A DNA stretch of 64,000 nucleotides, taken from the NCBI GenBank assembly GCA_036265205.1, contig DATAPL010000054.1, positions 1,223 to 65,222 on the forward strand, read 5' to 3'. The notes beneath the pieces were generated by a model, which made no database searches, was not told the origin of the DNA, and worked only from the letters and a program-made list of their open reading frames with translations. This DNA comes from Terriglobales bacterium. Lineage in GTDB: Bacteria > Acidobacteriota > Terriglobia > Terriglobales > Acidobacteriaceae. Below are positions 1-25,233 of this stretch, one piece after another; positions within the stretch are counted from its first letter, which is position 1; the number at the start of each line of letters is the position of its first letter. The position numbers were made by a program, and so were the translations under genes.

Positions 1-779
1 AGCACCGAAGTCCCGTAGGAACGCTGGCCGCCGTAAATCGTGTTGGCGACGTTCTGCGTCCAGGACAAGCTCGAAGGATCGAAAATGGCGGAACTGGTCC
101 CCTGGCCGGAATAAAAAACTTTGCCGCTGGGCAGCAGGTGCATACGCGGGTAGAGCGGCGGCGTCCAGCCTGCTGAATCGGGCTGGTTCCAACCCGAACC
201 GACGGTGTAAATCTCCACCGTAGTATTGGTGTTGCCGTTTTCGTCGGTTCCGGAAAAAGTCATGACGCGGCCGTCTCCCAGCGTGGTGACGGTCGGGTAC
301 CAGCGGCCATGGGCCATGCTCTGAACGTTGGTGAAAGTATTGGTCGAGGGATCGAAAATTGCGGATTTAGGCGAACCGTAAAATGGATCGTACTGAATGC
401 TGCCGCCGTTAACCAACACTCTCCCGTCCGGGAGATTCACCATGCCGTTGCAAAACATGTCCCAGGAGAGCGTGAAGGCGGTGAAAGTACCCGCCACCGG
501 ATCATAGATCTCGGCGCCGGAGGCATTCGATGGACCGTAAGGCGGCCCCGAGGGGCATCCGGACTGTGAAGGCGGACAGTTTCCAGAGCCTGCGACGATC
601 AGAATCTTGCCGTTTTTCATCAACGCCGCGTGGATGGGATTGATCGGCGTAGTCTGACTCAACGTGGTCCATTGCCCCTTCACATTCGCCTGTCCCATGG
701 CAGCGGGAACGATGACACCAAGCAGCAACAGGAGGGCAAGCAAAATGCCACGCGGGGGGGAGTAGTTGTCCGGGCTCAT
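1..779 (-). CDS. Copper radical oxidase (glyoxal/galactose oxidase-like), N-terminal 259 codons; 3' end lies beyond the window edge
   Basis: Absent from the ORF track because it runs off the edge. Reverse complement from the ATG at 779-777 reads MSPDNYSPPRGILLALLLLLGVIVPAAMGQ (signal peptide) ...SWDMFCNGMVNLPDGR...AHGRWYPT... It is colinear with the N-terminus of the 51633..54761 protein. My by-eye alignment counted about 27 differences in about 223 aa. A GGAG-type RBS lies at 784-789 (rc). Confidence 0.85.
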   Translation of the reverse strand, partial: MSPDNYSPPRGILLALLLLLGVIVPAAMGQANVKGQWTTLSQTTPINPIHAALMKNGKILIVAGSGNCPPSQSGCPSGPPYGPSNASGAEIYDPVAGTFTAFTLSWDMFCNGMVNLPDGRVLVNGGSIQYDPFYGSPKSAIFDPSTNTFTNVQSMAHGRWYPTVTTLGDGRVMTFSGTDENGNTNTTVEIYTVGSGWNQPDSAGWTPPLYPRMHLLPSGKVFYSGQGTSSAIFDPSSLSWTQNVANTIYGGQRSYGTSV

Positions 780-1039
780 TGACTCCTCAGCCTCTGCTGT
801 GGGTAGCGCAGAGGTAGGGTTAACCAGAATTTGGGGGGAGGGGTGTTACTTTCGGCCAGAGAAGCGGCATTCCAGAAGGAACACGCACTCGTGTAACCAA
901 AGTAACTTTATGCTTTTTGGTTAAATTCTGTCAAGCGGTCCGGATAGGAAAATGCTGCACTTACGGTTGGGGAGCGGGCCTTGCGGGGGTGAGAAAGGCG
1001 GACAGGTGGTGCGACCTTAACTTGCTGAAACCACGTAAC

Positions 1040-1927
1040 CTAGGTGAATTTTTGCAAGGACGCCGCAGTTAACTCTCCGGCCAGATGTCGGCGCCGCGAA
1101 ACCATGCTGCGGAGCAACGATCCGCCCAAAGAAATCTTCTCCCAGGCGCTCAGGCTCGACCGCATGATGGTCATCCAATGATCGCGGCTGCGGCTCCAGA
1201 AAGGCATCGAGGTTCCGCCGCTTCCGGTCCAGAATCGCACCCTCCAGCTGGCATCGCTGGTGTTCTGGCTGGAAGCCGCGGGATGCAGCCGCCGCAGCAG
1301 CAAAGGTTCAGGCACTTCAAAAAATTTGCCTGCTACCGCCAGCTCTCCCAACAAAGCATAATCGGCTCCCGGATAGCTGGGCAGCAGCGAGGTTCTGGCC
1401 AGGACCTGCTTGCGAATGAGGCCAAAGATGGCGTTCACCCAATGTTCGGCAAAGATCACGTAACGGAGCCGCTCCGGGGCTGCGTCGGAGCGCAAATCAA
1501 AACCCGGATCGGTGTTGCTGAGCGGCCCGCCATTCTCGTCGATGAATCGCGTCTTCCCGTACGCCAGCACCACGCCTGGGTCCCGCTCCAGCACCTCGAG
1601 ACATCGGGCGAGGTACTCAGGTTCATGAATATCGTCGGCGGCGGCCCACTTGAAATAATCTCCCTCAGCCCGCGCGAACAGAGAGTTGTAGTTGTTGGCC
1701 AGGCCGACGTCCTGAGGACTGCGATAGTACCGGACTCTCGGATCCCTGGCGGCGTACTCGCGGCAGATTGCCTCGGTGTTGTCGGTCGATGCGTTGTCCG
1801 AAATGATCAGCTCAAAGCCGGTATAGGTTTGCCCTAACAGCGAGTCCAGAGTTTCGACAAGAAAGCGCTCCCCGTTCCTGACCGGAACGCCCACGCTCAC
1901 CCGAGGCTTGCCTGATTTCACGGACAT
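1040..1927 (-). CDS. Glycosyltransferase family 2
   Basis: Frame of track ORF 1040..2077. The ATG at 1927 (MSVKSGKPRVSVGVPVRNGERFL...) avoids overlap with the upstream gene ending at 1950. GT-A signatures: VGVPVRNGERFLVETLDSLLGQTY, ISDNASTDNT, AAADD. Confidence 0.85.
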   Translation of the reverse strand: MSVKSGKPRVSVGVPVRNGERFLVETLDSLLGQTYTGFELIISDNASTDNTEAICREYAARDPRVRYYRSPQDVGLANNYNSLFARAEGDYFKWAAADDIHEPEYLARCLEVLERDPGVVLAYGKTRFIDENGGPLSNTDPGFDLRSDAAPERLRYVIFAEHWVNAIFGLIRKQVLARTSLLPSYPGADYALLGELAVAGKFFEVPEPLLLRRLHPAASSQNTSDASWRVRFWTGSGGTSMPFWSRSRDHWMTIMRSSLSAWEKISLGGSLLRSMVSRRRHLAGELTAASLQKFT

Positions 1928-1949
1928 CGATTCACCACAGATAGCGAAA

Positions 1950-2663
1950 CTACCGTCTCTTGCCCGCCCGCCGGGGATAAGTTTTACCTTTGGCCAGGTC
2001 GTCCTGCATGGGCAAAATAAGTTTGCGGCAGTAGAACGCCTCGGCAAACTTGTCGGGGGCGCTGCATTCCACTCCACGCAATCTCAGAATCGCCTGGAAA
2101 GTGTCCTCGGTCAGCCATGCCTTGTTGCTCTGCGTCTGAAAGACATCGCAGATGTGCTTGATCTTGCGCTCGCAGACTTCCCTGTTTAGCGGAATAAAGC
2201 AGTTTGGAGAACCCAGGTCGCCGTCGTATTTAGGAATCTCGTATTCCAGAATCAGGTGCCGCCGCCAGGTATTCCAGGTCAAATCGCTGATGGTGCGATG
2301 GTCCTGGTGGCGGTCATCGCGGTAGTGGGTGAAAATCAGATCGGGATTGACCTCCCGCTTCATGGCCTCGAAGAATTCCTTGATCCTTTCCCCCTGGTAG
2401 GGGAAGAAGCCGTCACGGAAATTCTTGACCACTACCCGGCTGCGCAGGGCCTGTTTTAAAAACAGATCGGCGCTGGTGCGCGCTTCCTTCTCCCGCTCCC
2501 GTCCGGAGCTGAAGACCGTCCACTGAACTTCCACATTCGAGTAGTGAGACAGCAGCTGCAGGATAGTGCCACCGCAGCCGATCTCGATATCATCGGAGTG
2601 CGCTCCCAGACATAACACCGTGAGCGGCGCCGCCCTATCCTCGCCCAGGCTTAGCGGCAGCAT
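1950..2663 (-). CDS. PIG-L/LmbE family N-acetylglucosaminyl deacetylase
   Basis: LCLGAHSDDIEIGCGGT and HQDH motifs are typical of the PIG-L zinc deacetylase fold. 237 aa. Confidence 0.85.
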   Translation of the reverse strand: MLPLSLGEDRAAPLTVLCLGAHSDDIEIGCGGTILQLLSHYSNVEVQWTVFSSGREREKEARTSADLFLKQALRSRVVVKNFRDGFFPYQGERIKEFFEAMKREVNPDLIFTHYRDDRHQDHRTISDLTWNTWRRHLILEYEIPKYDGDLGSPNCFIPLNREVCERKIKHICDVFQTQSNKAWLTEDTFQAILRLRGVECSAPDKFAEAFYCRKLILPMQDDLAKGKTYPRRAGKRR

Positions 2664-2690
2664 GCAACTCCACCCCTCCCCACCGCTTGC

Positions 2691-3479
2691 CTAACCTCTG
2701 CCATTGCTCTTCCAGACCTCCCAGGGAGCTCTGCCGGTGGCATACATGCCTTCCAGTTGCTGCTTGTCTTTAAACGTGTCCATGCTGGCCCAGAAACCGT
2801 CGTAGGTGTAGGCCATCAGCTGCTTCTCCTGCAGCAGGCGCTGGAAGGGCTCGCTCACCAGTTCTTCCTTGTCGCGCATGTACTTGAAAATTTCTTTCTT
2901 GAAGATGAAATAGCCGCCGTTGATGCGTATGTCGCCGTTATCGATGGAATGAATGCCCTCCACCAGGCTGCCGCCCGGCTGCATCGAAACCAGGTGGTAG
3001 CTGAGACTGGGACGCACGCACAGGAAGCTGGCTATTTTGTCATGCTGGTGAAAATGCTCCAGATGCTTGGGAAGCGGCAGATCGGTCAGGCCATCGCTGT
3101 AGTTGGCCAGAAATTCCTTCTCCCCCTCCAGATGCTTCTCCACCGCTTTCAGTCTCTGCCCGATGTTGGAATTGACTCCGGTATCGGCAAACGTAATACG
3201 CCAGTCGTGGATGTCGCTGTTCAGCAGTTCGAGATTCTTGCCTCCGCTGGTCAGGATGAAATCGTTGGAGGCGCACTCGTTGTAATTGAGAAAGTAATTC
3301 TTGATGGCATCGGCGCGGTGTCCCAGGCAAAGGATGAAGTCCTTGTGCCCGAAGTGAGCGTAGTACTTCATTACATGCCAGAGGATTGGCCGGTATCCCA
3401 AATGCACCATGGGCTTGGGCAGATCTTCGGCGTCGCGAATTCGCATGCCCAGCCCACCGCAAAATAGAACGACTTTCAT
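2691..3479 (-). CDS. rfbF: Glucose-1-phosphate cytidylyltransferase
   Basis: MKVVLFCGGLGMRIRD...LPKPMVHLGYRPILWHVMKYYAHFGHKDFILCLG matches the RfbF/DdhA N-terminus. The 262-aa length is typical. Confidence 0.9.
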   Translation of the reverse strand: MKVVLFCGGLGMRIRDAEDLPKPMVHLGYRPILWHVMKYYAHFGHKDFILCLGHRADAIKNYFLNYNECASNDFILTSGGKNLELLNSDIHDWRITFADTGVNSNIGQRLKAVEKHLEGEKEFLANYSDGLTDLPLPKHLEHFHQHDKIASFLCVRPSLSYHLVSMQPGGSLVEGIHSIDNGDIRINGGYFIFKKEIFKYMRDKEELVSEPFQRLLQEKQLMAYTYDGFWASMDTFKDKQQLEGMYATGRAPWEVWKSNGRG

Positions 3480-3511
3480 GACTGCTTCATGCCTCCGCTG
3501 GCTCCAGCCAG

Positions 3512-4582
3512 TTAGCGTGTAACCGTTTTGCCCGCCGCCGCGAGTTCGCTGTCAGCCGGTTTGTTCCAGCGCAAGTCTTTGAGCCGGCCTTCGCTCATCA
3601 GCTTCTGAATGGTCTTGATGCGCTGGTAACGCGTGCCGGAAAAATCTTCGCGCGTCATGCCATATTTCTTCATGGCCGCGTAGAGTTCTTCCATTCCCTT
3701 GCGTACCGTCCACTGCGGCTGGAAGGCGGGAAGAGTCTTCGCGATCTTGTCACAATTCACCCGATAGCAGCGGGGGTCGGGCCCTCCGCCCACGGCGTAG
3801 CTGACTTTGCTTCCGGGCACGACTTCCGTAACCATTTTTGCCAGGTCGCGAACCTGGTAGTTCTCCTGGGTACGGCCCACGTTGAAAGCCTGGTTGTGCA
3901 CCAGGTTCCGCGGCGCTTCCAGAATCGCCAGAAAAGCACGGCTGATGTCCTCGATATGCACCAGCGGCCGCCAGGGCGTGCCGTCGCTTTGCACCGAAAC
4001 TTCGCCGCTCGTGAAGGCAGCGGCCACCAGATTGTTGACCACCACGTCGCCTCGCAGCCGGGGAGAAAATCCATAGGCGGTGGCGTTGCGTAGAAAAGTC
4101 GGACTGAATTTGTCGTCTGCCAGCTTGGAAACTTCCTGCTCAACTCTTACTTTGGATTCCCCATAAGGCGTGATGGGGTTGAAGGCAGCCGTTTCTGTCA
4201 GCATGTCTTCCGTCCCGGCCAGGCCGTACAGACTGCACGAGGAAGCGAACAGATAACGCGGCACGCCCACCTGCTTGGCTGCCTTGGCGATGCGGACCGA
4301 CGCCAGGTGATTGATCTGCTCCGTGCCCCCGGGATTGAGATTGCCCAGAGGGTCGTTGCACAGCGCCGCCAAATGTATGATCGCGTCGAAGCCCGCGACA
4401 TGCTCAGGGCGGACGTCGCGAATATCGACCCGGAGAGCCGGAATATCGGGCGGCGGCGGACCAAAAGTGCAGGGATCGAACAAATAAGTATCCATGCCCG
4501 TGACTTCATGGCCTCCGGCGCTTATTACGCCTGTCAGAACCGAACCGATATAACCGTTATGCCCCGTGATCAAAACCTTCAT
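3512..4582 (-). CDS. NAD-dependent sugar epimerase/dehydratase (extended SDR)
   Basis: Rossmann motif ITGHNGYIGS and catalytic YGESK (YxxxK). 356 aa. Confidence 0.8.
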   Translation of the reverse strand: MKVLITGHNGYIGSVLTGVISAGGHEVTGMDTYLFDPCTFGPPPPDIPALRVDIRDVRPEHVAGFDAIIHLAALCNDPLGNLNPGGTEQINHLASVRIAKAAKQVGVPRYLFASSCSLYGLAGTEDMLTETAAFNPITPYGESKVRVEQEVSKLADDKFSPTFLRNATAYGFSPRLRGDVVVNNLVAAAFTSGEVSVQSDGTPWRPLVHIEDISRAFLAILEAPRNLVHNQAFNVGRTQENYQVRDLAKMVTEVVPGSKVSYAVGGGPDPRCYRVNCDKIAKTLPAFQPQWTVRKGMEELYAAMKKYGMTREDFSGTRYQRIKTIQKLMSEGRLKDLRWNKPADSELAAAGKTVTR

Positions 4583-4638
4583 CTCATTCTCCCAAAGTAT
4601 TCGAAATAATTGCTTTCCTGCCGGACTCTATCTGGTGC

Positions 4639-5574
4639 TCACCTGATTTGTGCAACCCCTGAGTGGTGCTGCTGGTACCAACTCACGGTTGCCGCCAAAC
4701 CCTCGCGCAATGAAGTGCGCGGAAACCAGTTCAGTCTTTCCCGTAAAAAAACTGTGTCGGCGGCGCGTTCCTGTTCCATGGGCCGGTCCGGCAAAGCTCC
4801 GAATTCCGGCTCGACCCGGCTTTCGGTTAGCTGAACGATGTGGCCGACCACGTCCCGGACAGAGGATAGCAAGCCCGAACCCAGGTCAAAAGTACACCCT
4901 TCGATTCCAGAGACGGCGGCCGCCCGCATGAGGCCTTCGACCACGTCGTCCACATAAACCCAGTCTGCCCGGCGGCGGCCGCTGCTTAACTTCGGCGCCT
5001 CACCCGCCAGCAGCTTCAGGGTAACGAACGGCACCAGTTTTTGCAGATCCTTCTGGTCAGGACCGTAAGTCATGAAGATGCGCGGGATGACCACCGGCGT
5101 GTCATATAACTCGTGGAACATGCGGGCGTAAGCGCCGCTCGCCCACTTGGCCACGGCATACGGTGAGCACGGTACCGTGCCATCCAACCCTTGCGGCTCT
5201 TCCGAGGAATTGGCCAGCACCATCCGCCGGCACCCGGTCTCGGCTGCCGTGGTCAACAAGTACACCGTGCTGGCCAGATTGTCGTGAAAAGTCGGCAGAA
5301 CTTTGGCTAAATCGCGGGCGCCGGCAACGTGGCTGGCCAGATGAAAAACGAAATCCGGACGAGTGTTATGAAAAAGCTCGCGGACGGCGGCCTGGTCATT
5401 CATGTCCGCCTGCCAGCAGCGCAGGTTCTCGCGTTCGGAACTCTGCCGCTGCCGCGAGACCGCATGCACCGTGACTCCGGATTCCAGCAGCCGCCGGGCA
5501 AGGTGTGAACCGATGAAGCCGCTCGCTCCGGTCAGCAGCGCCGTTGATCCCGACAGTTGTTCTGCTTGATTCAA
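4639..5574 (-). CDS. NAD-dependent sugar epimerase/dehydratase/reductase (extended SDR)
   Basis: LTGASGFIGSHL Rossmann motif and YAVAK catalytic motif. The only in-frame start ahead of the Rossmann motif is the TTG at 5574, which overlaps the upstream stop (TTGA). Confidence 0.8.
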   Translation of the reverse strand: MNQAEQLSGSTALLTGASGFIGSHLARRLLESGVTVHAVSRQRQSSERENLRCWQADMNDQAAVRELFHNTRPDFVFHLASHVAGARDLAKVLPTFHDNLASTVYLLTTAAETGCRRMVLANSSEEPQGLDGTVPCSPYAVAKWASGAYARMFHELYDTPVVIPRIFMTYGPDQKDLQKLVPFVTLKLLAGEAPKLSSGRRRADWVYVDDVVEGLMRAAAVSGIEGCTFDLGSGLLSSVRDVVGHIVQLTESRVEPEFGALPDRPMEQERAADTVFLRERLNWFPRTSLREGLAATVSWYQQHHSGVAQIR

Positions 5575-6929
5575 CGCTGCACTCCCTCGCTGTCGCCGGG
5601 GTGGGCTTCCTGAAGAAGATCGTGCTTGCGCAGCATGTCTGCCGCGTCCTTGATGATGTCGAAAGCCAGCTTGGAGCGCTCCGCGATGTCAAGCAGGCTA
5701 TGCGTGCCGTCGGCCTGGTTGAGCACCCACAGCATGGCGGTTTCCTGCAGTTTCTCATCGCGATGGCCGCCCATGGCGCGGTAGAGCCCGCGCCGTCCCA
5801 GTTGCGGCTCGCAGTGCGGATTGCGGTTGAGATAAACCCGGTCGTTATCCACAATGTAAAGCGCCGCCAGGCACTTGGACAAAGAGTCGGCCAGGCTGGC
5901 CGGGTGCATCAGCTCCAGATTGTCGGCGGAGCTGTGATACTGGGGGAATTTTCCGTGCGGCGTCCGCATAAAACAACCCACCGGCAGGTTGAATCCGGGC
6001 GAGCAGTATTGCCGTTCGTCATAACCGTACGGGGAAAATTCGTGGATGTCATAAGCGTGGCCGGAATGTTTCAGCACCTGGCCCATGGCCCGGTCGATCA
6101 CCGCGTCGCCGCGCCGGCTCTTCTTATAGTTCACGTGGCCGCGGTCGCCGACGCAGGTAAGCACCAGGCCGTGGCGAATGTTCTGCGCCCGATCCTGGTT
6201 CAGGCTGAGCCAGGTGATCGATCCGATGGTTCCCGGAATAAACAGGAACCGGTAGGAGTAATGAAGCGGCACCTGCGCCAGCGACTTGGCCAGAAAAGTG
6301 GCCACCCCGACTCCGGAAAGATTGTCATTGCAGAGTGAAGGATGGCAGGCGTGGCAGGAAATCAGAACTTCTTCTTCCGACTCGCCCTTCAGCAGGCACT
6401 CGCCGTAGGTCAAGTGCCCATCCTGCAGCGTGGAATCAATACAGACTTCGTATTCATCCTCGGGCATCTGCTCCAGCTGTCGTTGCGGCAGGCAGAATCC
6501 CCAGGCTTCCTTGTAGTAAGACGTGCGGTAGGGAATCAAGTCCGGCTGCTCCGGCAGGGTGTGCAGGTGAGGCCGTAGCTGGGCCAGCGACATCCTGGCC
6601 TGCACCGGAATGCTGTAGTTCACTACGTGCAGGTTGTGGCGGCGAAAATCGATGACTCGTTCGCCTTTGGAATTTTTCACATAAGCATCGCGGATGTTCC
6701 ATTCCCGCGGCACCGTCCAGTCAAAGACCTTAGTGCCGCTGGGGACTTCGCGCACTTCCAGCGGAATCTCTTTCTTCAGCCGGGCCAGGGTCTGGCGGAA
6801 ACCGTCGCCGGTGATGCTGCGGCAAATCGGGTAAAGCTCCCGCATCAGAGCGTAAATATCGCGGCCGGCGGCCAGCGGGTCGAACCCGGCTCGAAGCTCG
6901 GCAAAATCCGTGGTCTGGGTCGGTGTCAT
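5571..6929 (-). CDS. Aminopeptidase-like domain protein (DUF4910/COG4310-type), function unknown, typical of sugar-modification cassettes
   Basis: 452 aa. The N-terminal pattern ...YPICRSITGDGFRQTL...FDWTVPREWNI... matches my recollection of the M28-like polysaccharide-locus family. The gene is embedded in the CDP-sugar operon. Confidence 0.65.
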   Translation of the reverse strand: MTPTQTTDFAELRAGFDPLAAGRDIYALMRELYPICRSITGDGFRQTLARLKKEIPLEVREVPSGTKVFDWTVPREWNIRDAYVKNSKGERVIDFRRHNLHVVNYSIPVQARMSLAQLRPHLHTLPEQPDLIPYRTSYYKEAWGFCLPQRQLEQMPEDEYEVCIDSTLQDGHLTYGECLLKGESEEEVLISCHACHPSLCNDNLSGVGVATFLAKSLAQVPLHYSYRFLFIPGTIGSITWLSLNQDRAQNIRHGLVLTCVGDRGHVNYKKSRRGDAVIDRAMGQVLKHSGHAYDIHEFSPYGYDERQYCSPGFNLPVGCFMRTPHGKFPQYHSSADNLELMHPASLADSLSKCLAALYIVDNDRVYLNRNPHCEPQLGRRGLYRAMGGHRDEKLQETAMLWVLNQADGTHSLLDIAERSKLAFDIIKDAADMLRKHDLLQEAHPGDSEGVQR

Positions 6930-6941
6930 GAAAGGCTCAGC

Positions 6942-7472
6942 CTAGCCGGCAAAGTCAGGATAGTTCCGGTCGCGATCCGCCATGGTGGGGTTTTCGATCA
7001 TCCACTTTATGCCAAAGGCCGGATCGTTGTAACGCGCCCCGCGGGCATGTTGCGGTGAATAGAACTCCGACATCTGGTAGAAGATCTCGGTGTTGTCTTC
7101 GAGCGTCTGAAAACCGTGCGCAAAACCCTCGGGAACGTACAACATTTTATAGTTGGCGGCGCTGAGCACCTCTCCCACGTGCTGCTTGTAGGTGGGAGAA
7201 CCGGGCCGCAGGTCGACGATGACGTCGTAAAGCGAACCTCCGGTACAGCGCACCAACTTGGCCTCGGCATACGGCGAGGCCTGGTAGTGCATGCCGCGCA
7301 GCGTGCCTTTCGTCCGGTTGAACGAAATGTTGCACTGCACCAGCCGCGGATTCAGGTTGTGGGCTTCAGCTTCTTTCTGGCACCAGGAGCGGGCAAAAAA
7401 GCCCCGCTCGTCTTCACGTTTTTCCAGTTCGACGACGAAAGCTCCCTTCAGCCTGGTCTCAGTGAAGATCAC
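6942..7472 (-). CDS. dTDP-4-dehydrorhamnose 3,5-epimerase-like (RmlC/RfbC cupin) NDP-sugar epimerase
   Basis: DERGFFARSW...GTLRGMHYQ...KLVRCTGGSLYDVIVDLR...YVPEGFAHGF are RmlC hallmarks. The likely GTG start at 7472 overlaps the upstream TAG (TAGTG) and follows GGAGGTGGAGG. The track ORF extends to 7520. Confidence 0.85.
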   Translation of the reverse strand: MIFTETRLKGAFVVELEKREDERGFFARSWCQKEAEAHNLNPRLVQCNISFNRTKGTLRGMHYQASPYAEAKLVRCTGGSLYDVIVDLRPGSPTYKQHVGEVLSAANYKMLYVPEGFAHGFQTLEDNTEIFYQMSEFYSPQHARGARYNDPAFGIKWMIENPTMADRDRNYPDFAG

Positions 7473-8755
7473 TAGAAGACCTCCACCTCCGGAATCGGAA
7501 CCACGAATTTGCCGCCCCACTCGCGGATGTAAGCGAGCTGCTCCCGGATTTCATTCTTCAGATTCCAGGGCAGGATGAACACGTAGTCCGGCTTGGTCTG
7601 GCGAATCTTGTCGGGAGGAAAAATCGGAATGTGCGTGCCCGGCAGAAATTTTCCATGCTTGTAAGGATTGCGGTCCACCGTGTAATCCAGGAAATCGGTG
7701 CGGATGGCGCAATAATTCAGCAGGGTGTTGCCCTTGCCGGGCGCGCCGTATCCGGCAATCGACTTGCCCGCGCGCTTGGCCTCGATCAGGAAGCTCATGA
7801 TCTTGCGCTTGGTCTCTTTGACCTTTTCGTCAAACGAGAAATAGGTTTCGAGGCGGGTGAACCCGGCTTTTTCCTCGCGTTCAGCCAGCTCCCGGGCGCG
7901 GTCGGTCACGGGATGCGACTTGTCGTCGGCGTGGCGGGCATACACTCGCAACGAGCCCCCGTGCGTGGAAAGTTCCTCGACGTCAAAAACCGTCAGGCCG
8001 AACTTGGCCATGATCTTCATGGTGGCGAGGAAAGAAAAATAGGAAAAGTGTTCGTGGTAGATGGTGTCGAACTGGTTGCCTTCCATCAGCCGCATCAGGT
8101 GAGGAAACTCCAGAGTGATCACGCCCTGCGGCTTGAGCAGGGTCTTCATGCCTGCGACGAAGCTGCAGACATCCGGCACCTGCGCTAACACGTTATTGCC
8201 CAGGATCAGGTCAGCCTGGGTGCCGTCATTCACCATTTCCGCCGCCAGCTCGCGGCCGAAAAACTTGACCAGGGTGGGAATTCCCTTCTTGGTGGCTTCC
8301 TTAGCCACGTTTACAGCCGGCTCGATGCCCAGCACCGGGACGCCTTTCTCCACAAAGTACTGCAGCAGATAGCCGTCGTTGCTGGCCAACTCAACCACCA
8401 GGCTGTCGTGGTCGAGCTGGAAGCGCTTGACCATCAGGTCGGTGTAGGCCTTGGAATGCGCCAGCCAGCTGTCGGAAAAGGAAGAGAAATAGGCGTACTC
8501 GGTGAAGATATTTTCCGGGGTTACGTACTCCTCCAGCTGCACCAGAAAGCACTTCTCGCACACCAGCACATGCAATGGATAAAACGGCTCCATCTGGTTG
8601 AGCTGATCCGCCGACAGGTTGCTCTCGCAGGGCGGAGACATTCCCAGATCGGTGAAAGTGTGGTGCAACGCCGCTCCGCAGAATCTGCAGGGAGCATGCT
8701 TCACGGCATTTTCGGTTTTTGGCATCGCTCGGTCGAGAGTCAGATTGTCAGTCAT
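7472..8755 (-). CDS. NDP-hexose C-methyltransferase-type SAM-dependent methyltransferase
   Basis: N-terminal Cys4 zinc ribbon (CRFCG...CEKC), class I SAM fold (VVELASNDGYLL) and a long C-terminal domain, as in TylCIII-type sugar C-methyltransferases. 427 aa. Confidence 0.75.
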   Translation of the reverse strand: MTDNLTLDRAMPKTENAVKHAPCRFCGAALHHTFTDLGMSPPCESNLSADQLNQMEPFYPLHVLVCEKCFLVQLEEYVTPENIFTEYAYFSSFSDSWLAHSKAYTDLMVKRFQLDHDSLVVELASNDGYLLQYFVEKGVPVLGIEPAVNVAKEATKKGIPTLVKFFGRELAAEMVNDGTQADLILGNNVLAQVPDVCSFVAGMKTLLKPQGVITLEFPHLMRLMEGNQFDTIYHEHFSYFSFLATMKIMAKFGLTVFDVEELSTHGGSLRVYARHADDKSHPVTDRARELAEREEKAGFTRLETYFSFDEKVKETKRKIMSFLIEAKRAGKSIAGYGAPGKGNTLLNYCAIRTDFLDYTVDRNPYKHGKFLPGTHIPIFPPDKIRQTKPDYVFILPWNLKNEIREQLAYIREWGGKFVVPIPEVEVF

Positions 8756-8974
8756 GATTGTAAAAGCTTTACGCTTCCCTAACGTTAGATTTGAATATCC
8801 ACTTCACGGAGAACAGGTTGGCCCGGAGAACCGCCACTCAAGGGGAAGCGTTTCGCAGGCTTTGATCGTACGTTATCGAATACCCTCGAATAAGAACATC
8901 TTATTCGACTTGCCGGCCATGCCCGAAGTCACCTAAGTACAGGGCAATAAGGCACTTTCTCTTCATTGCAGTCG

Positions 8975-10549
8975 CTATTGCTCGGATGCGGCATGCAGTG
9001 CTGCCTGGCTCTCTTCGAGTGTCGCCCCCAGGGTCTGGGGGACACTGCGCCGCTTTCTCCAGGCGCGCCACTGAACCGTGATTTCCTCGCGGAATATCAG
9101 CGCCAGGGTCAGCGGAACCAGAGGCAGCAGAACCCCGATTTGCAGGAAGAAAATCAACAGATTGCGGGGATGCCAGTAATGTTCGGAGAAGGCGCAGGCC
9201 AGCGCAAAAGGAATCGCGCCCAGCCCGGTTCGAATCCAGGTTTGCCAGAGATAAGTCCGCACCGGGATCGCCACCAGCTTCGAGACATAAGCCGGCCACA
9301 AAACCACTTCGCAGAATACGCTGGGGATCGCCGAACCCCAGGCCACGCCGTAAATCCCGATCCGGCGAACCAGAATGATGCTCAGGACAAGGTTGGCAAT
9401 GGCTTCGCCGATGCCCCAGAAAGCAATGCGCTTGTGTTTCCCCATGCCGAACACGATGCCCACGCTGGTGGTGTTGGCCGAAGCAAACAGCACCGAGAGC
9501 AGAAGGATCTGCATGACGGTTCCAGAGGTTTCAGCATACTGCGGCCCCATCCATAAATTGATGAAGGTATGGCCGCGAAAGAACAGGGCCGCTTCGATAG
9601 GCAACGCGATCACCAGCGCTGCCCTGGTGCCGTGGATCACCAGACGGCGCAGGTTGTCGAAGTTGCCGACCGCGTCGAAGTTGCTGGCCAGCGGCGTGAA
9701 GGTCGCGGTCATCGAGGTGATGATCACCCGCGCATACGAGATCAACATTCCGCCGATCGCGTACATCGTGACCGCGGCGGGAGACAGAAAGGCGCCCACT
9801 ACCAGGTTGTCCGAATAGTAGGCCACCTGCACCGCGATGTTGATCAGGAAGGCATAGAAGCTGTAGTTCCAAAGCTTGCTCAACGTGGGACGGTCGGGAC
9901 GCCCGAAAGCCAGCTTGAGCTGGGGGAAAACCCGGATGCAAAGAAATATGGTCGCGCCGTTCGCCACCAGAGAGGTGCACAGTTCCCAGAATGCCAGGGC
10001 CCGAATGCCGTGGCCGGAGCGCAGCAACAGCACGATGCCTCCCGCCCGGAAACAGGTTTGCAGGATGGAAACGGCGCTGCTCAGATCGAAACGATGAAGC
10101 GCTACCAGGACGCTGCCGAAAACTCCCGACCACAGCGTGATGGCGACGCTGACGCAAGTCAGAAGGATGGCGATTCTGGCATCGTTCTGGAGTTCCGGCG
10201 GGATGACAAATATGCGATGGAAGACAACCGACAGAGTGAACCCCGCGACCACGATTGCCAGACTGATCCACAGCCTGATCCATAACGCCGCCGAGACCGC
10301 CCGGCTTGCATCTTCGTTGTTTCCCTCGGCGGTTCCTTTCGAAACAAACCGGGTTACCGCTCCCCGCAAGCCCAGATCCAGCAGGTTCATGTAGGAGACG
10401 AAGGAGAGCGTAATCACCCACACGCCGTAGGTCAGGTTTCCCAGGTGGTGCACCACGAACGGCGATATGAAAAAGCCGACGCCGGTCGAAACCGCCAGGG
10501 AAAACCAGTTGGAAAATATGTTCTGAACTATGCGGCGAGCGCGAGGCAT
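8975..10549 (-). CDS. wzx: Oligosaccharide/polysaccharide flippase (Wzx, MOP superfamily)
   Basis: 524 aa and polytopic. The N-terminus ...NIFSNWFSLAVSTGVGFFISPFVVHHLGNLTYGVWVI... is typical of Wzx-like polysaccharide biosynthesis proteins. Confidence 0.8.
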   Translation of the reverse strand: MPRARRIVQNIFSNWFSLAVSTGVGFFISPFVVHHLGNLTYGVWVITLSFVSYMNLLDLGLRGAVTRFVSKGTAEGNNEDASRAVSAALWIRLWISLAIVVAGFTLSVVFHRIFVIPPELQNDARIAILLTCVSVAITLWSGVFGSVLVALHRFDLSSAVSILQTCFRAGGIVLLLRSGHGIRALAFWELCTSLVANGATIFLCIRVFPQLKLAFGRPDRPTLSKLWNYSFYAFLINIAVQVAYYSDNLVVGAFLSPAAVTMYAIGGMLISYARVIITSMTATFTPLASNFDAVGNFDNLRRLVIHGTRAALVIALPIEAALFFRGHTFINLWMGPQYAETSGTVMQILLLSVLFASANTTSVGIVFGMGKHKRIAFWGIGEAIANLVLSIILVRRIGIYGVAWGSAIPSVFCEVVLWPAYVSKLVAIPVRTYLWQTWIRTGLGAIPFALACAFSEHYWHPRNLLIFFLQIGVLLPLVPLTLALIFREEITVQWRAWRKRRSVPQTLGATLEESQAALHAASEQ

Positions 10550-10576
10550 GAAAAGCAGGTCTCCAATTGCTGCAGA

Positions 10577-11926
10577 TTAACGGACCGGACCGCCCGACTG
10601 ACCGGCGGGCGTCATTACTACATTCTTGTCCTCAATCGTCTGGGGAGACGCACCACTGACCAGGTTCAGCACTTCCGAAAACTGGCGAGCCATGTGGAAA
10701 TGAGTGTAGCGTTCAATGGCCGCCTTGATGCCATGGTAAGAAACTCGGCCCCGGGTTTTGAATTCCTGATAGCTGTCCTTCAGGAACGTGCGCACGTCAT
10801 CCCGGGAGAAGGCGTGAATTCCAGCGCCGGTTTCGTTCAGGGTCTCGGTGAGCACGCTGGGCCCGCCGCCCACCGCCAGAATCGGCCGGCCGGCGCCGAG
10901 ATATTCGAACAATTTGCCGCTGTGCTGGCCGGTTTCACGAGGATCGGTCCAACCCAGCATAAGCAGTATCTGTGATTCCGCCTGGCGCTGCAGAGCTTCA
11001 GCCCGGGCAATCAGTCCAGGAAGCTGTACCACGCCGCCCAGCCCGTATTGTTGCACTTGCGCCTCTACCCAGGGTTCGACCTTGCCGTAGAATCGCACCT
11101 CGACGTCCTCGGGAGATATCAGCTTCTGGTCAAAGAGTTCACGCAGCGCCTCGAACAGCATCGCCGGGTCGCGGCGTCCCTGGTAAAGCAGGCCGGCGTA
11201 GGTGATGGTGAATTTTGAGGTCAGCTCTCCTGACAGGGATGCGAACTGGTCAGGATCGAAGCCGTTCGTAATGGCAAAAATTCGCTTCGATGGATAGCTG
11301 CGCTGCAGCCGCTCCGCCCAGGGTTGCGAAACCGTCACCAGGGCGTCGGCATCCTTGAGCGTGCGCCTTTCCAGTCCAGTCTGCATGGCTTCGAGCCTGG
11401 GGTGCGGGTTGGACATGTTCTGGGTCCATAGATCACGAAAATCGGCCACCCAGGGACAACCCAGAATCTTCCTGGCCTTACGCCCAATGAGGTGGCTCGA
11501 AATCGGCGGCGACGTGGTCAAAATGGCGTCAAACTTCAAACCCTGATCAGCCATCTTCTCCAGCGCCCGCAAAGCAAATGGAACCCAGCCTTTGGCTTCG
11601 TCAGGATAGGTAATAAAGTAGCGGGCCATTTCGAGCGCGCGGGTGTGCCACAGCTCGGAGCGTGGCTTGGAGGATACGGCAAGCCCGAGCTGTTGATGCA
11701 CGCTGCGTTTGCCGTCCATCCCCAGCCGCTTTTTCCAGGTCGCAACTACATCCCGGTATTCGGTTTCGACGATCGACGGATCGGCCGGGGAACGTTGGAC
11801 TTGAGGGGTAAGGACGATCGAATCCCAGCCGAACCGGGACAGGTATTTCACCAGGCCGGCCGGCCGCACCGACCCAATCACTTGCGTCGGAGGGTAGCAA
11901 AACGTAATTAGCAGGACACGAGGCAT
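10577..11926 (-). CDS. Glycosyltransferase, GT-B fold (GT4-like)
   Basis: MPRVLLITFCYPP... N-terminus and a C-terminal ...GKLFEYLGAGRPILAV... (EX7E region). 449 aa. Confidence 0.75.
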   Translation of the reverse strand: MPRVLLITFCYPPTQVIGSVRPAGLVKYLSRFGWDSIVLTPQVQRSPADPSIVETEYRDVVATWKKRLGMDGKRSVHQQLGLAVSSKPRSELWHTRALEMARYFITYPDEAKGWVPFALRALEKMADQGLKFDAILTTSPPISSHLIGRKARKILGCPWVADFRDLWTQNMSNPHPRLEAMQTGLERRTLKDADALVTVSQPWAERLQRSYPSKRIFAITNGFDPDQFASLSGELTSKFTITYAGLLYQGRRDPAMLFEALRELFDQKLISPEDVEVRFYGKVEPWVEAQVQQYGLGGVVQLPGLIARAEALQRQAESQILLMLGWTDPRETGQHSGKLFEYLGAGRPILAVGGGPSVLTETLNETGAGIHAFSRDDVRTFLKDSYQEFKTRGRVSYHGIKAAIERYTHFHMARQFSEVLNLVSGASPQTIEDKNVVMTPAGQSGGPVR

Positions 11927-11975
11927 TTTTGGATTTGAAAACCAAAATCGGCGCCCACGGAAGCGCGGCGCGGAA

Positions 11976-13760
11976 TCAGGAGTTCACAGGTTGTGGTTCG
12001 GCCGGTTGCCTTACTCCGTTCGTCTGGGAATTTTCCGTCAGCTCGTCGCGCAAAGTCTGCCGGCTTTCGCCGCTGACGAGCAATCGCTTCAGCAAGGCGT
12101 AGTTCAACAACGACCACAGCGTCATGGCCTTTCGCGGATCGGCGCCCTGCAGGGAGCGCAACTGCTTGACATCGACGACTTTGGCGGCCAGCGCAATCAA
12201 CGGCTCCAGGGTGCCGCCGGGCTCCGCCCAGCGGTTGGAAACGATACCAAAACTCTGCTTGGGACGATTGCGGATGAAATCCGGAACCCCCAATTTTTGC
12301 GCGACCTGGCGAAGAATGTGCTTGGGAGATTTCAATTTCGTCTCCCACGAAGTAGAGAAGGCCGCATCCAGCAATTCTCTTCTCACGAAGGGATAGTAGG
12401 CCGTCTTGCCCTGGCCTTCGGCCAGCTTCGACCAGATGGAAGTGGTGCCCACCACCTCCGAATAGTTCAGCAGGTATAACGACAACACATCCTCAAAGCG
12501 CTGCTTTTCGAAGGCATGCAGGGAACGATGACGGATGGCGACAATCTCTTCGCGGGACGCTCCATAATTGGACTCGACCCAGGCGAAATCTCCATACGCG
12601 CCGCAATCCCACATGGGGTTTAGGGGATGGGCAATTGGCAGGCGCGAGTTCTTCATTCTGGCGATGCGTTGGGTCCGCGCCTGCACCCTCTTCCACTTGC
12701 GCCCCAGCATTTTCAAACCGCCATACACCGGCCCGAAGGAGGAAATTCGCTGCGGCAGCTCGAGCGCGCGGCGCACCATGAAATGGTCATCGATACCAAA
12801 GGCGCAGTCGGCCGCTTCTCCGATGATGACCTTGTTGAAATTCTTCGGAATGGCGTGCCGGAAAAGCAGGTGCAGCAAAGTAGATTGCAGGTGATGCAGC
12901 GGGGCTTCGGCATCGGCCACGGCATCGACCACGCCGGCCACGAAATCGGAGCCATGCGGGGTAAACAGAGTGTGCCGGGTGGAGAGAGCGGCCGCAGCGG
13001 AAAGCGCATACTTTTGTTCGAAGTTGACTTCCGGTTCGTCAAACGGATACGAGCTTGAAAACGTGTCATGCGCCCCAATCTGGTCGCGCGCAACCGCGCT
13101 GAGCAGGGATGAATCGAGACCGCCGCTGAGCAGGGTTGTAACCTGCGACGAAACCGGCTTGAGGGCGCGCACCGAATCGATCAAAACCCCGGCCACAGTG
13201 TCGACCGCCTGCGCCTCGCTCAGCCGCGGATCGGGAGGAGGCTGCCGGTAGCCGCTGTCTTCGCCGCTCAGCGTCCAGCGCCCGCTCTTCCAGCGGATGT
13301 CCAGTTCGCCCGCGATCTTCATCCGCCGGATACCCCGGTAGAAAGAGCGCGGAGGAGCCACGGTCCGGTAGATCAGCAACTCGGGCAGGGACTGCGGATC
13401 TTCTTCGATCGTGACCCCCGCCTGGCGCAACAAGGCTATATGGGTTGAAACGAAAAAGTTACCGTGCGCATCCTGAGTGTAATAAACCGGCCGTCCGGCG
13501 GAAGTGGACTTGGAAATTCGCAGCCAGCGGTCCTGCAGCAGGAAGCGCGCGGAAAAAAAGATGACATCGTTCCTGCGATCTTCGCAGGAAGCCAGCAGCG
13601 ACTCCGTAGCTGTAATTTCGTTCTCTGCCACTTCCAGCCGCGACATAAAACCGTCGGTGATCCAGGTCAGGAAGCAATCCGGAGCGATGGAAAACTGCCG
13701 CGGGGAATAGGCTTGCAGACGATCGGCGATATGGGACTGGGTGAGGGCTACGAATAACAT
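11976..13760 (-). CDS. Asparagine synthetase (AsnB)-like amidotransferase homolog lacking the N-terminal Cys nucleophile
   Basis: PP-loop LLSGGLDSSLLSAVA. 594 aa. The N-terminus is MLFVALTQ..., not MCG.... Confidence 0.75.
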   Translation of the reverse strand: MLFVALTQSHIADRLQAYSPRQFSIAPDCFLTWITDGFMSRLEVAENEITATESLLASCEDRRNDVIFFSARFLLQDRWLRISKSTSAGRPVYYTQDAHGNFFVSTHIALLRQAGVTIEEDPQSLPELLIYRTVAPPRSFYRGIRRMKIAGELDIRWKSGRWTLSGEDSGYRQPPPDPRLSEAQAVDTVAGVLIDSVRALKPVSSQVTTLLSGGLDSSLLSAVARDQIGAHDTFSSSYPFDEPEVNFEQKYALSAAAALSTRHTLFTPHGSDFVAGVVDAVADAEAPLHHLQSTLLHLLFRHAIPKNFNKVIIGEAADCAFGIDDHFMVRRALELPQRISSFGPVYGGLKMLGRKWKRVQARTQRIARMKNSRLPIAHPLNPMWDCGAYGDFAWVESNYGASREEIVAIRHRSLHAFEKQRFEDVLSLYLLNYSEVVGTTSIWSKLAEGQGKTAYYPFVRRELLDAAFSTSWETKLKSPKHILRQVAQKLGVPDFIRNRPKQSFGIVSNRWAEPGGTLEPLIALAAKVVDVKQLRSLQGADPRKAMTLWSLLNYALLKRLLVSGESRQTLRDELTENSQTNGVRQPAEPQPVNS

Positions 13761-13941
13761 GGCTTGCCAACTGACTGCACGAACCTGGAAGTTTGCAGCT
13801 CGGCGCGAAAGTCAGTCACGGCCCGGCCACCAACGATCCAATCTGCTACCACTAAAATCGAAGCTTGAGGAAACTCCCTGCTGAGAGATTTGCCGGCGCC
13901 CGACGGCACCGCTCGTCGAAATCATCCCAGGCCTGAGGCCC

Positions 13942-14550
13942 TCATCGCGGCCTCGCAGGCACTCCAATCACGGTCGTGTGGGGAGCGACATCCCGGGTAA
14001 CCACCGCACCAGCCCCTATCATCGCGTGATCCCCGACGCGCAGGTATTCCAGAACTCGGGCCCCGGTTCCGACTAGTACACCCTCTCCCAGGCAAACCCC
14101 GCCGCTGATGTTGGCGCCGGGATTGATCAGGCAGCCCTCGCCGACCTGGGTTTCATGCCCGATGGCACAGCCAAAGTTACATTGCGCAAAAGCTGCGATC
14201 TGCACATTTTCGGTGAGAATGGCACCCACACCCACGATGGCGCCGGGCGCCAGTTTTGAAGTCCGTCCGACGTAGGCTGTGGGATGCACCAGGGCCGGCC
14301 ACTCGATCTGGGGATACTGTGTTTTCAGCCGCCGGCCAACCGCAAGCTTGGACTGGGGATTGCCGATGCCCATGGCCAAACAATCGATGGCGTGGCTTTG
14401 CAGCCAATCGAATCCACCCAGCAGCGGACTATCATGGGCGCCCGCCCGGTCGGCGAGAAATCCGACAAACTCGTATTGGCCGAGATCGCGGATCAGGCCT
14501 GCCACTTCCCTGCCATTCCCGCCGGCTCCGACGACTGCGATGGTCTTCAT
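13942..14550 (-). CDS. NeuD/PglD-family sugar N-acetyltransferase (left-handed beta-helix)
   Basis: MKTIAVVGAGGNGREVAGLI Rossmann-like N-domain followed by hexapeptide repeats. 202 aa. Confidence 0.8.
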   Translation of the reverse strand: MKTIAVVGAGGNGREVAGLIRDLGQYEFVGFLADRAGAHDSPLLGGFDWLQSHAIDCLAMGIGNPQSKLAVGRRLKTQYPQIEWPALVHPTAYVGRTSKLAPGAIVGVGAILTENVQIAAFAQCNFGCAIGHETQVGEGCLINPGANISGGVCLGEGVLVGTGARVLEYLRVGDHAMIGAGAVVTRDVAPHTTVIGVPARPR

Positions 14551-25211: not shown

Positions 25212-25233
25212 GCGAGATTGAATTTCGTGACGA

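What the first reader, a model, noticed from the sequence alone, without database searches (positions are those of the whole stretch)
1..779. Inverted paralogous copper-radical-oxidase genes bracket the whole 50-kb polysaccharide island
The minus-strand partial gene at 1..779 and the plus-strand gene starting at 51633 both read outward from the island.
- Their signal-peptide regions are the same length.
- They are colinear from the first codon. I counted about 27 substitutions in about 223 aligned residues.
- In a stretch I aligned by eye, roughly four of five nucleotides are identical.

They therefore form an inverted repeat about 51 kb apart that encloses every EPS gene, the regulators and the accessory cassette.

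This arrangement suggests one of three things:
1. Duplication tied to acquisition or assembly of the island.
2. A substrate for recombination-mediated inversion of the island.
3. Dosage or specialisation of an extracellular oxidase acting on the polymer.
Basis: seen in the sequence. Interest (0 to 1): 0.6.

Follow-up and report, generated by a model that had tools for sequence, protein, structure and literature searches.

The report
Diverged copper-oxidase paralogs flanking EPS locus
Two old, still-functional copies of a secreted GlxA-like copper-radical oxidase sit at opposite ends of a soil acidobacterium's exopolysaccharide locus; this reflects a gene family that habitually travels with this locus in the genus, not a DNA inversion switch or a freshly acquired island.

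Summary
Window 1-697 and 51715-52411 are the only long inverted repeat in the first 56 kb. The full homology runs 1634 nt at 80% nt and 83% aa identity, extending left of the window.

Both genes encode GlxA/galactose-oxidase-type copper-radical oxidases (CROs) with all catalytic residues. L-R dS is about 1.0 and dN/dS about 0.08, so they are old, selected paralogs. The longest identical run is 27 nt and no recombinase was found, so an inversion substrate is unlikely.

- **Left copy:** it is the co-directional last gene of the EPS gene string. The same placement is seen in 9 of 11 genus genomes that carry the CDP-sugar module.
- **Family:** the genome has at least four paralogs. L, R and a third copy on contig C26 cluster together, excluding the positional orthologue in the closest relative.
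- **Gene conversion:** an L-C26 tract is significant (p<=1e-4).
- **Right copy:** it abuts rph at a junction absent from four relatives.
- **Bracketing:** glycan-related genes probably continue beyond the left copy, so "encloses every EPS gene" is overstated.

Best reading: specialised extracellular oxidases functionally linked to the polymer. The Streptomyces CslA-GlxA pair is the precedent.

The parts
1..779 (-). CRO_L: the first 259 codons (ATG at 779) of a GlxA-like copper-radical oxidase. The gene runs off the window and off contig C54 (at least 667 aa). In-window Cys110 is at nt 452-450 and Trp160-Tyr161 at nt 302-297. Tyr362-His363 and His447 lie left of the window.
1..697 (.). In-window part of the left arm of the inverted repeat. 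The full arm is contig C54:247-1875, which is window -976..653.
51715..53388. Right arm of the inverted repeat. The repeat finder reports 51715-52411. The BLASTN homology with the full left gene spans 51759-53388 at 80.4% nt identity.
905..934 (-). Sigma-70-like promoter match (TTGACA-18-TAAAGT, 10 of 12) in the 260-bp GT2 to CRO_L spacer. No terminator-like site is found there. The evidence is weak: 1 match found against 0.8 expected by chance.
1040..39512 (-). Wzx/Wzy-type EPS gene string that ends in CRO_L. It contains GT2, PIG-L, a CDP-sugar module (NTP-transferase, two SDRs, DUF4910, RmlC, C-methyltransferase), a Wzx/MATE flippase, GT4s, an AsnB-like gene, a PglD-like gene, two DegT genes, Polysacc_synt_2, Wzy_C, a Wzz/GNVR tyrosine kinase (33858-36161), Poly_export/SLBB (36176-37009), an EBP-type regulator (37307-38797) and a NusG paralog (38862-39512).
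40071..40883 (+). LuxR-type response regulator. In several relatives a CRO gene follows it directly.
45140..51226 (.). Accessory surface module that recurs next to CRO genes in relatives. It comprises a GT2 (45140-45955, -), an IPT/TIG protein with a lipo-invert tail (46008-49088, -) and a DUF4082/BACON protein (49565-51226, +).
51530..51549 (+). Terminator-like hairpin (8-bp stem followed by a T run) between the DUF4082 gene and CRO_R. It suggests CRO_R is its own transcription unit.
51633..54761 (+). CRO_R, with a GTG start preceded by GGAGGAG (an alternative TTG lies at 51603). Architecture: signal peptide, Kelch propeller, E-set domain, four IPT/TIG (CoaZ) repeats and a lipo-invert C-terminal anchor. 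Catalytic residues in the numbering from 51603: C120, W170-Y171, Y372-H373, H457.
54762..54926 (.). The 165-bp CRO_R to rph junction, a synteny breakpoint specific to this genome. In four relatives rph instead neighbours the block that lies at C48:24385 here.

Best explanation
**What the two genes are.** They are diverged, functional members of a multi-copy family of secreted GlxA/galactose-oxidase-type copper-radical oxidases. In this Terriglobia genus the family is habitually linked to one Wzx/Wzy exopolysaccharide locus.

**CRO_L.**
- It is the conserved copy.
- It is the co-directional terminal gene of the EPS string, after the CDP-sugar module, PIG-L and GT2.
- It has positional orthologues across the genus.

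**CRO_R.**
- It derives from the L lineage after the split from the closest sampled relative. The route was either duplication or gene conversion of the catalytic part.
- It has its own ribosome-binding site, signal peptide and upstream terminator-like hairpin.
- It carries a different display stalk: four IPT/TIG repeats plus a lipo-invert membrane anchor.
- It sits in the accessory surface-protein module at the regulator end of the locus.

**Inferred mechanism (not shown).**
- Both enzymes are exported, form the Cys-Tyr cofactor and bind copper.
- They then oxidise primary alcohols of the nascent or deposited polymer, or of a surface glycan, to aldehydes with release of H2O2.
- One form would be membrane-tethered (R). 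The other (L) carries a different tail that appears to lack this anchor.
- This would be a tailoring or cross-linking role analogous to GlxA with the CslA glycan.

**The inverted-repeat geometry.** It is a by-product of this family clustering around the locus. It is not a recombination device.
For: **Shown**

*Enzyme identity*
- Pfam PF07250 and PF09118 score above their cut-offs in both genes.
- The best solved homologue is S. lividans GlxA, 4unm (E = 1.6e-63). Cys, Trp-Tyr, Tyr-His and His all align, and they are invariant in 12 relatives.

*Age and selection*
- L-R dS is 0.99 and dN/dS is 0.08.

*Linkage to the EPS locus*
- A CRO lies co-directional, 2-6.3 kb downstream of the NTP-transferase gene, in 9 of 11 genus genomes that have that gene.
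- The same position is seen in 16 of 80 loci from other Terriglobia.
- The clade-B CRO and the CDP-sugar module co-occur in 19 genus genomes (Fisher p = 0.005, not corrected for phylogeny).
- A CRO lies at the LuxR end in G003, G007, G017, L045, L068 and L101.

*Phylogeny and gene conversion*
- L, R and C26 group together, excluding the positional orthologue L039. Support is 92/96 on all codon positions and 94/95 on positions 1+2.
- The L-C26 conversion tract is significant (p <= 1e-4).
- A 94.5% identical, catalytic-domain-only inverted pair exists in another genome.

*Architecture*
- R carries an invert_tail (70.5 bits against a cut-off of 37) and four CoaZ/TIG repeats.
- L's probable C-terminus, at the head of C35, has no hydrophobic tail.

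**Precedent**
- The CslA-GlxA complex makes cellulose in vitro (PMC11022532).
Against: - No experiment or transcript data link either oxidase to the polymer.
- The family is large: more than 569 stretches were found in public genomes.
- About 45 of 80 related loci show none of this window's EPS genes within 10 kb.
- The third paralog, on C26, lies in a non-EPS context.
- The closest relative has no CRO at the LuxR end, so the two-ended arrangement is not universal.
- The co-occurrence test is not phylogenetically corrected.
- Most relatives are MAGs.
- The substrate is unknown. GlxA's own substrate is also unresolved, and its role may be partly structural.
Confidence: 0.62

Rival explanations
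1. The inverted paralogs are a substrate for homologous-recombination-mediated inversion of the 51-kb island. Such inversion could act as a phase-variation-like switch or as a recurrent evolutionary flip.
For: - The geometry is right: the repeat is inverted, outward-reading, 1.6 kb long and 51 kb apart.
- Gene conversion does occur within the family, so the copies do interact by recombination.
Against: - Identity is only 80%, and the longest identical run is 27 nt.
- At this level of divergence RecA-dependent exchange is expected to be strongly suppressed (established knowledge).
- No recombinase, invertase or transposase domain appears in any of about 50 window ORFs scanned.
- A sliding comparison with the positional orthologue shows no crossover point in L or R.
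- The L end lies next to the same C35-type flank in G047 and G003, and by inference here.
- Inversion would not change the promoter-gene relationships of the island interior in any obvious way.
Confidence: 0.04
2. The duplication was created by, or at the time of, acquisition or assembly of the island. On this view the CRO copies mark the ends of a mobile or translocated unit.
For: - R is a lineage-specific relative of L.
- The CRO_R to rph junction is unique to this genome. In G003, G012, G016 and G047 rph neighbours the C48 block instead.
- Relative to G003, the accessory genes have been redistributed between contigs C35 and C54.
Against: - L-R dS is about 1, so the copies are old.
- GC content is uniform at 57-61% across island and flanks.
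- There is no integrase and there are no flanking direct repeats.
- The L end is in its ancestral context.
- The EPS locus with an L-position CRO is vertically conserved in the genus.
- The homology covers only the mature catalytic part plus the first TIG domain, not the gene ends or flanking DNA.
Confidence: 0.12
3. The oxidases have nothing specific to do with the EPS. They are general extracellular oxidases, for example for H2O2 generation or for oxidation of plant-derived alcohols and aldehydes. Their position next to the locus would reflect co-location of surface or secreted protein genes, or hitch-hiking.
For: - The family is large and patchy, and many copies lie away from EPS genes.
- The family is present in only 12 of 120 genera sampled in the bacterial family.
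- The NCBIfam GlxA equivalog score is far below its cut-off.
Against: - The co-directional position at the end of the EPS string is conserved in 9 of 11 genus genomes.
- The CRO co-occurs with the CDP-sugar module.
- A separate paralog (the C35 type) is the last gene of an operon of overlapping genes with a processive GT2 and a polysaccharide deacetylase. This echoes cslA-glxA and shows that the family's link to glycan synthesis is recurrent.
Confidence: 0.2

Closest known systems
GlxA of Streptomyces lividans/coelicolor (radical copper oxidase; PDB 4unm), which partners the cellulose-synthase-like CslA
   Same: - It is the best solved homologue (E = 1.6e-63).
- It has the same Kelch propeller plus E-set fold signature.
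- The Cys-Tyr pair, the stacking Trp, the Tyr-His pair and the distal His are all conserved.
- It is extracytoplasmic.
- It is genetically linked to an extracellular glycan pathway.
   Different: - The GlxA-specific inserted domain is absent: the alignment skips GlxA residues of about 118-229.
- The NCBIfam GlxA equivalog scores 286 bits against a cut-off of 800.
- GlxA is N-terminally membrane-anchored. Here there is a cleavable-looking signal peptide, IPT/TIG stalks and, in R, a C-terminal lipo-invert anchor.
- The partner pathway is a Wzx/Wzy heteropolysaccharide locus, not a processive GT2 synthase.
- Several paralogs occur per genome.
Fungal AA5 copper-radical oxidases (galactose oxidase 1gof; glyoxal oxidase)
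   Same: - They share the Pfam Glyoxal_oxid_N and GO-like_E_set domains.
- They have the same five active-site residues.
- They are secreted.
   Different: - The relationship is distant (E of about 1e-35 to 1e-39).
- There is no N-terminal CBM32 or F5/8 domain.
- The bacterial proteins carry surface-display modules.
- The genes are embedded in a polysaccharide locus.
Large inverted repeats that mediate chromosomal inversions (for example between rRNA operons or IS copies) and invertase-driven polysaccharide promoter switches in Bacteroides
   Same: Two inverted homologous segments flank a polysaccharide locus.
   Different: - Those systems use near-identical repeats, or short inverted repeats plus a dedicated recombinase.
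- Here identity is 80% with runs of at most 27 nt.
- No recombinase was found, and there is no evidence of alternative orientations.

Membership tests
Copper-radical oxidase family (AA5-like; Pfam Glyoxal_oxid_N + GO-like_E_set) | Kelch-type propeller (Glyoxal_oxid_N) followed by a C-terminal E-set (DUF1929) domain | tested here: met
   - PF07250 scores 43.7 and 46.4 bits against a cut-off of 37.5.
- PF09118 scores 96.4 and 99.2 bits against a cut-off of 25.
- This holds for both R and L.
Copper-radical oxidase family (AA5-like; Pfam Glyoxal_oxid_N + GO-like_E_set) | Active site: Cys and Tyr of the thioether cofactor, the axial Tyr, two His ligands and a stacking Trp | tested here: met
   - The alignment to GlxA 4unm matches the motifs FC, RWYPT, YHS and THxxxxDQR.
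- These residues are invariant in alignment A1.
- Positions are R C120/W170/Y171/Y372/H373/H457 and L C110/W160/Y161/Y362/H363/H447.
Copper-radical oxidase family (AA5-like; Pfam Glyoxal_oxid_N + GO-like_E_set) | Export to the extracytoplasmic space | tested here: inconclusive
   Both N-termini have a basic, then hydrophobic, then A/G-x-G-Q pattern that looks like a signal peptide. No signal-peptide predictor was available.
Copper-radical oxidase family (AA5-like; Pfam Glyoxal_oxid_N + GO-like_E_set) | Cu-dependent two-electron oxidation of alcohols or aldehydes with H2O2 release | not testable with these tools
   This needs an enzyme assay.
GlxA equivalog (NCBIfam NF052501) / cslA-glxA system | Full-length match above the curated equivalog cut-off, including the GlxA-specific inserted domain | tested here: not met
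   - Scores are 286 bits (R) and 283 bits (L) against a cut-off of 800.
- The PDB alignment jumps from GlxA residue ~117 to ~230.
GlxA equivalog (NCBIfam NF052501) / cslA-glxA system | Adjacent processive GT2 (CslA-like) synthase | tested here: not met
   - L follows a non-processive-type GT2, PIG-L and a CDP-sugar module in a Wzx/Wzy locus. R follows DUF4082 and TIG surface proteins.
- Only the separate C35-type paralog sits in an operon with a Glyco_trans_2_3/Chitin_synth_2-like GT2.
Recombination-driven invertible segment | Near-identical inverted repeats, or short inverted repeats with a dedicated recombinase | tested here: not met
   - Identity is 80.4% and the longest identical run is 27 nt.
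- No recombinase domain appears in the scanned ORFs.
Recombination-driven invertible segment | Both orientations observed in reads or in close relatives | not testable with these tools
- The available relatives show the L end next to the same flank.
Horizontally acquired genomic island | Compositional deviation, mobility genes, and tRNA or direct-repeat boundaries | tested here: not met
   - GC is 57-61% throughout.
- No integrase or transposase was found.
- The only tRNA prediction lies inside the locus at 33542-33619.
- The locus is conserved in the genus.
Lipo-invert C-terminal anchor (NCBIfam NF058595) | Match above the curated cut-off at the extreme C-terminus | tested here: met
   - R residues 930-1042 score 70.5 bits against a cut-off of 37.
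- It was not found in the known part of L or in the C26 paralog.

The most novel reading that the evidence does not exclude
In this Terriglobia genus, stalked and partly membrane-tethered GlxA-like copper-radical oxidases are dedicated tailoring or cross-linking enzymes of a Wzx/Wzy-made heteropolysaccharide. This would be a new partnership for bacterial copper-radical oxidases, which so far are tied only to the synthase-type CslA glycan. The copies around the locus would be kept similar within genomes by recurrent catalytic-domain gene conversion. This would explain why paralogs cluster by genome in several lineages: L/R/C26 here, the 94.5% identical pair in G032, and the sister L-position and R-position clades in the G003 group.
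Probability: 0.3. Interest if true: 0.6.

Novelty: new variant of a known kind. Interest (0 to 1): 0.36.

Why it matters
- **Bacterial CRO biology.** Bacterial copper-radical oxidases are barely studied. The only worked example, GlxA, is needed for a cellulose-like glycan in Streptomyces.
- **A testable link.** A conserved genetic link between stalked CROs and a Wzx/Wzy exopolysaccharide locus in abundant soil Acidobacteriota suggests oxidative tailoring or cross-linking of the matrix polymer. This bears on soil aggregation and on enzyme discovery, and it gives a clear knock-out and assay target.
- **The specific claim.** For the inverted repeat as an island boundary or inversion device, the result is deflationary. 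The copies are old, diverged paralogs of a clustered gene family.

Tried and rejected
- **Exact k-mer overlaps to close the gap.** I searched for overlaps between the C54 start and other contig ends. None was found at k = 21-127. The C54-C35 join therefore rests on homology and synteny only.
- **Crossover or chimera scan.** I compared L and R with the positional orthologue L039 in sliding windows. No switch point was found.
- **GENECONV-style test for L-R.** It gave only p = 0.024 uncorrected, which I treat as not significant. R-C26 gave p = 0.6.
- **Simple insertion between rph and the C48 block.** Rejected, because contig C48 continues 24 kb past the expected breakpoint.
- **Apparent interior inversion in G007.** Rejected as meaningless. 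The contig ends in outward CROs on both sides, so flipping the contig restores the G000 order.
- **Literature search.** No library paper reports CRO-EPS linkage in Acidobacteria.
- **Gene calling.** My crude ORF caller chose the wrong strand at 37223-38785 and missed 36176-37009. Both were corrected with Pfam.

Full report
**1. Observation**

- The minus-strand ORF at window 3-779 and the plus-strand ORF at 51603/51633-54761 are clear paralogs. BLASTP gives 201/240 identities with no gaps.
- The repeat finder finds exactly one inverted repeat of at least 40 nt in window 1-56000: arms 1-697 and 51715-52411, 79% complementary, 51,017 nt apart.
- The window is C54:1223-65222 of a 60-contig, 4.9-Mb genome.
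- Reading into the 1222 bases left of the window, the left ORF stays open to contig base 1 (667 aa, no stop). It remains 83% identical to the right protein over 576 aa.
- BLASTN gives 80.4% over 1634 nt. The match runs from about nt 127 of the CDS to the end of the first IPT/TIG domain. There is no similarity in the signal-peptide codons or upstream DNA.
The left ATG at 779 is preceded by GAGGAG. With these starts the pre-sequences have equal length.

**2. What the genes are**

- Both carry Pfam Glyoxal_oxid_N and GO-like_E_set above the gathering cut-offs, plus IPT/TIG domains: one so far in L and four in R.
- The best solved homologue is the Streptomyces lividans radical copper oxidase GlxA (4unm, E = 1.6e-63), followed by fungal galactose oxidases.
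- The GlxA alignment conserves the Cys of the Cys-Tyr cofactor, Trp-Tyr, Tyr-His and the distal His. These residues are invariant in 12 relatives.
- The genes are not GlxA equivalogs. NF052501 scores 286 bits against a cut-off of 800, and the GlxA-specific inserted domain is missing.
- R ends in four CoaZ/TIG repeats and an NF058595 "lipo-invert" anchor (70.5 bits against 37).
- L's region after the first TIG domain instead resembles the repeated module of a third paralog on contig C26 (91-96% identity).

**3. The surroundings**

| Window region | Content |
|---|---|
| 1040 to ~39.5 kb (minus strand) | Wzx/Wzy polysaccharide gene string: GT2, PIG-L, CDP-sugar module, flippase, GT4s, two DegT, Polysacc_synt_2, Wzy_C, Wzz-type kinase, Poly_export, an EBP-type regulator, a NusG paralog |
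| ~40-51 kb | LuxR regulator, a small cassette, a GT2, a TIG/invert-tail protein, a DUF4082 protein |
| 51633-54761 | CRO_R |
| from 54927 | Housekeeping rph |

- CRO_L lies on the same strand as the EPS string and immediately downstream of it. The spacer is 260 bp, with a weak promoter-like match and no terminator-like site.
- CRO_R follows a terminator-like hairpin.
- GC content is uniform at 57-61%.
- No recombinase, integrase or transposase domain was found in about 50 ORFs.

**4. A gene family, not a unique pair**

- The genome has at least four paralogs:
  - L and R on C54.
  - C26:9144-14396, a 1750-aa protein about 78% identical to L, in a non-EPS context.
  - C35:57667-59514, about 55% identical.
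- In the genus, 13 of 18 species representatives have 1-6 copies, often clustered within 10-70 kb.
- A public-genome scan found more than 569 related stretches, essentially all in Terriglobia/Acidobacteriota MAGs.
- At family level, 12 of 120 sampled genera carry the family.

**5. Linkage to the EPS locus**

- Synteny mapping gives the order Wzx ... CDP-sugar module, PIG-L, GT2, CRO, all co-directional. This order is seen in:
  - G003, G007, G017 and G002 (degraded in G002).
  - G047, the closest relative (it also appears under the handle G031).
  - 16 of 80 loci from other genomes.
- I searched the CDP-sugar NTP-transferase independently of the CRO. Nine of 11 genus genomes with that gene have a co-directional CRO 2-6.3 kb downstream.
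- Presence of the clade-B CRO and of the module co-occur. The 2x2 table is 9/2/1/7, with Fisher p = 0.005, not phylogenetically corrected.
- A CRO also follows the LuxR gene in G003, G007, G017, L045, L068 and L101. It often has the TIG and DUF4082 genes beside it. This is not the case in G047.
- Outward-facing CROs on both sides of the core locus therefore recur (G000, G003, G007, G017) but are not universal.

**6. Age and history of the pair**

- Nei-Gojobori estimates over the catalytic region give L-R dS = 0.99 and dN/dS = 0.08. L-C26 and R-C26 are similar.
- Protein and DNA trees place L, R, C26 and the positional orthologue of L from G047 (L039) in one fully supported clade.
- DNA trees group the three G000 copies to the exclusion of L039. 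Support is 92/96 on all positions and 94/95 on positions 1+2. L has the shortest branch.
- R and C26 are therefore lineage-specific derivatives of the L lineage, by duplication or by conversion. The split is about three-quarters as deep as the G000/G047 split.
- Gene conversion is demonstrably active in the family:
  - An L-C26 tract at codons ~354-372 reaches 96-98% nt identity against a ~75% background (permutation p <= 1e-4).
  - In G032 an inverted pair 33 kb apart is 94.5% identical over exactly the catalytic domain and 63% beyond it.
- For L-R the signal is marginal (p = 0.024).
- Elsewhere positional orthology is visible. The LuxR-adjacent copies of G007, G017 and L101 form one clade. 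The L-position and R-position copies of the G003 group form sister clades.

**7. Island boundaries**

- *Right side.* In G003, G012, G016 and G047 rph is flanked by the same right-hand genes as here. On its other side, however, it neighbours the block that lies at C48:24385 in this genome. The CRO_R to rph junction is thus a breakpoint specific to this lineage.
- *Left side.*
  - In G047 the L-position CRO is followed by homologues of C35:305-6775. In G003 the same flank is present.
  - The first 157 nt of C35 encode the C-terminal 50 residues of a C26-like module followed by a stop.
  - I infer that C54 joins C35 across a repeat-induced gap, so the L end is in its ancestral context.
- *Beyond L.* On C35 lie GT-C-like membrane proteins and a UDP-GlcNAc 2-epimerase. 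About 55 kb further on is a tightly overlapping operon of polysaccharide deacetylase, processive-type GT2, two unknown genes and the C35-type CRO.
- "Encloses every EPS gene" is therefore too strong.

**8. Inversion hypothesis**

- The arms share 80% identity with a longest identical run of 27 nt, and no recombinase is present.
- L and R show no crossover signature against the orthologue.
- The L end keeps the same flank in two relatives.
- I rate this hypothesis at about 4%.

**9. Best explanation**

- The pair represents two specialised, selected members of a CRO family that is functionally tied to this EPS locus.
- L is the conserved operon-terminal enzyme. R is a later, independently expressed, membrane-anchored derivative placed in the accessory surface-protein module.
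- That they oxidise the polymer or a surface glycan is inference. It rests on the conserved linkage and on the CslA-GlxA precedent (PMC11022532).
- It remains possible, at about 20%, that they are general extracellular oxidases.

**10. Novelty and score**

- The proteins belong to a known enzyme family.
- The variant features are the stalked or anchored architectures, the multi-copy state with concerted evolution, and the partnership with a Wzx/Wzy locus.
- The inverted-repeat "bracket" itself is ordinary.
- Interest is 0.36.

Noticed in passing
G000 contig C35:52831-59514 (locus L126:2831-9514); homologous operon in G003 (L015:4324-11013): A more distant CRO paralog (55% identical to L and R) is the last gene of an operon of overlapping genes: polysaccharide deacetylase, processive-type GT2 (Glyco_trans_2_3/Chitin_synth_2-like), a 277-aa unknown, a 664-aa M48-like protein, then the CRO. 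It is a closer analogue of Streptomyces cslA-glxA than the window genes. It occurs as one orthologue per genome in the genus.
   Followed up: partly
L040:10006-11440 and L062:9984-11437 (MAG contig CAWAYW010000005.1, about 33 kb apart, convergent): Two inverted CRO genes in another Terriglobia genome are 94.5% identical at nt level across exactly the catalytic domain but only about 63% beyond it. This looks like recent domain-confined gene conversion.
   Followed up: partly
G000 contig C26:9144-14396 (locus L123:144-5396, minus strand): The third paralog is a 1750-aa CRO with seven IPT/TIG domains in a non-EPS neighbourhood. It shares a 96-98% identical tract of about 60-180 nt with CRO_L (codons ~346-390) and 91-92% identical C-terminal repeat modules. 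These repeats probably caused the contig break inside CRO_L.
   Followed up: yes
window 33542-33619 (+): ARAGORN predicts a tRNA-Gly(GCC) inside the EPS locus. It overlaps the 5' end of the 530-aa minus-strand ORF 32166-33758, which has no Pfam hit. Either that ORF is over-called or the tRNA is a false positive.
   Followed up: no
window 55734-58708: A cupin gene and an 827-aa Ser/Thr kinase gene lie between rph and the next conserved flank gene here. They are absent from that position in G003, G012, G016 and G047, so this is a second lineage-specific insertion next to the breakpoint.
   Followed up: partly
window 36176-37009 (-) and 37307-38797 (-): A Poly_export/SLBB (Wza-like) gene and a sigma-54-activator-type regulator with a receiver domain lie on the minus strand. 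A naive longest-ORF call picks a spurious plus-strand ORF (37223-38785) here.
   Followed up: yes
G002:C6:1042056-1043751, G017:C15:428852-430343, G016:C7:21355-23060, G033:C5:680168-681908: The L-position or nearby CRO copies in several relatives carry in-frame stops or are split into two ORFs. This suggests frequent pseudogenisation and turnover within the family. These are MAG assemblies, so sequencing errors are not excluded.
   Followed up: no
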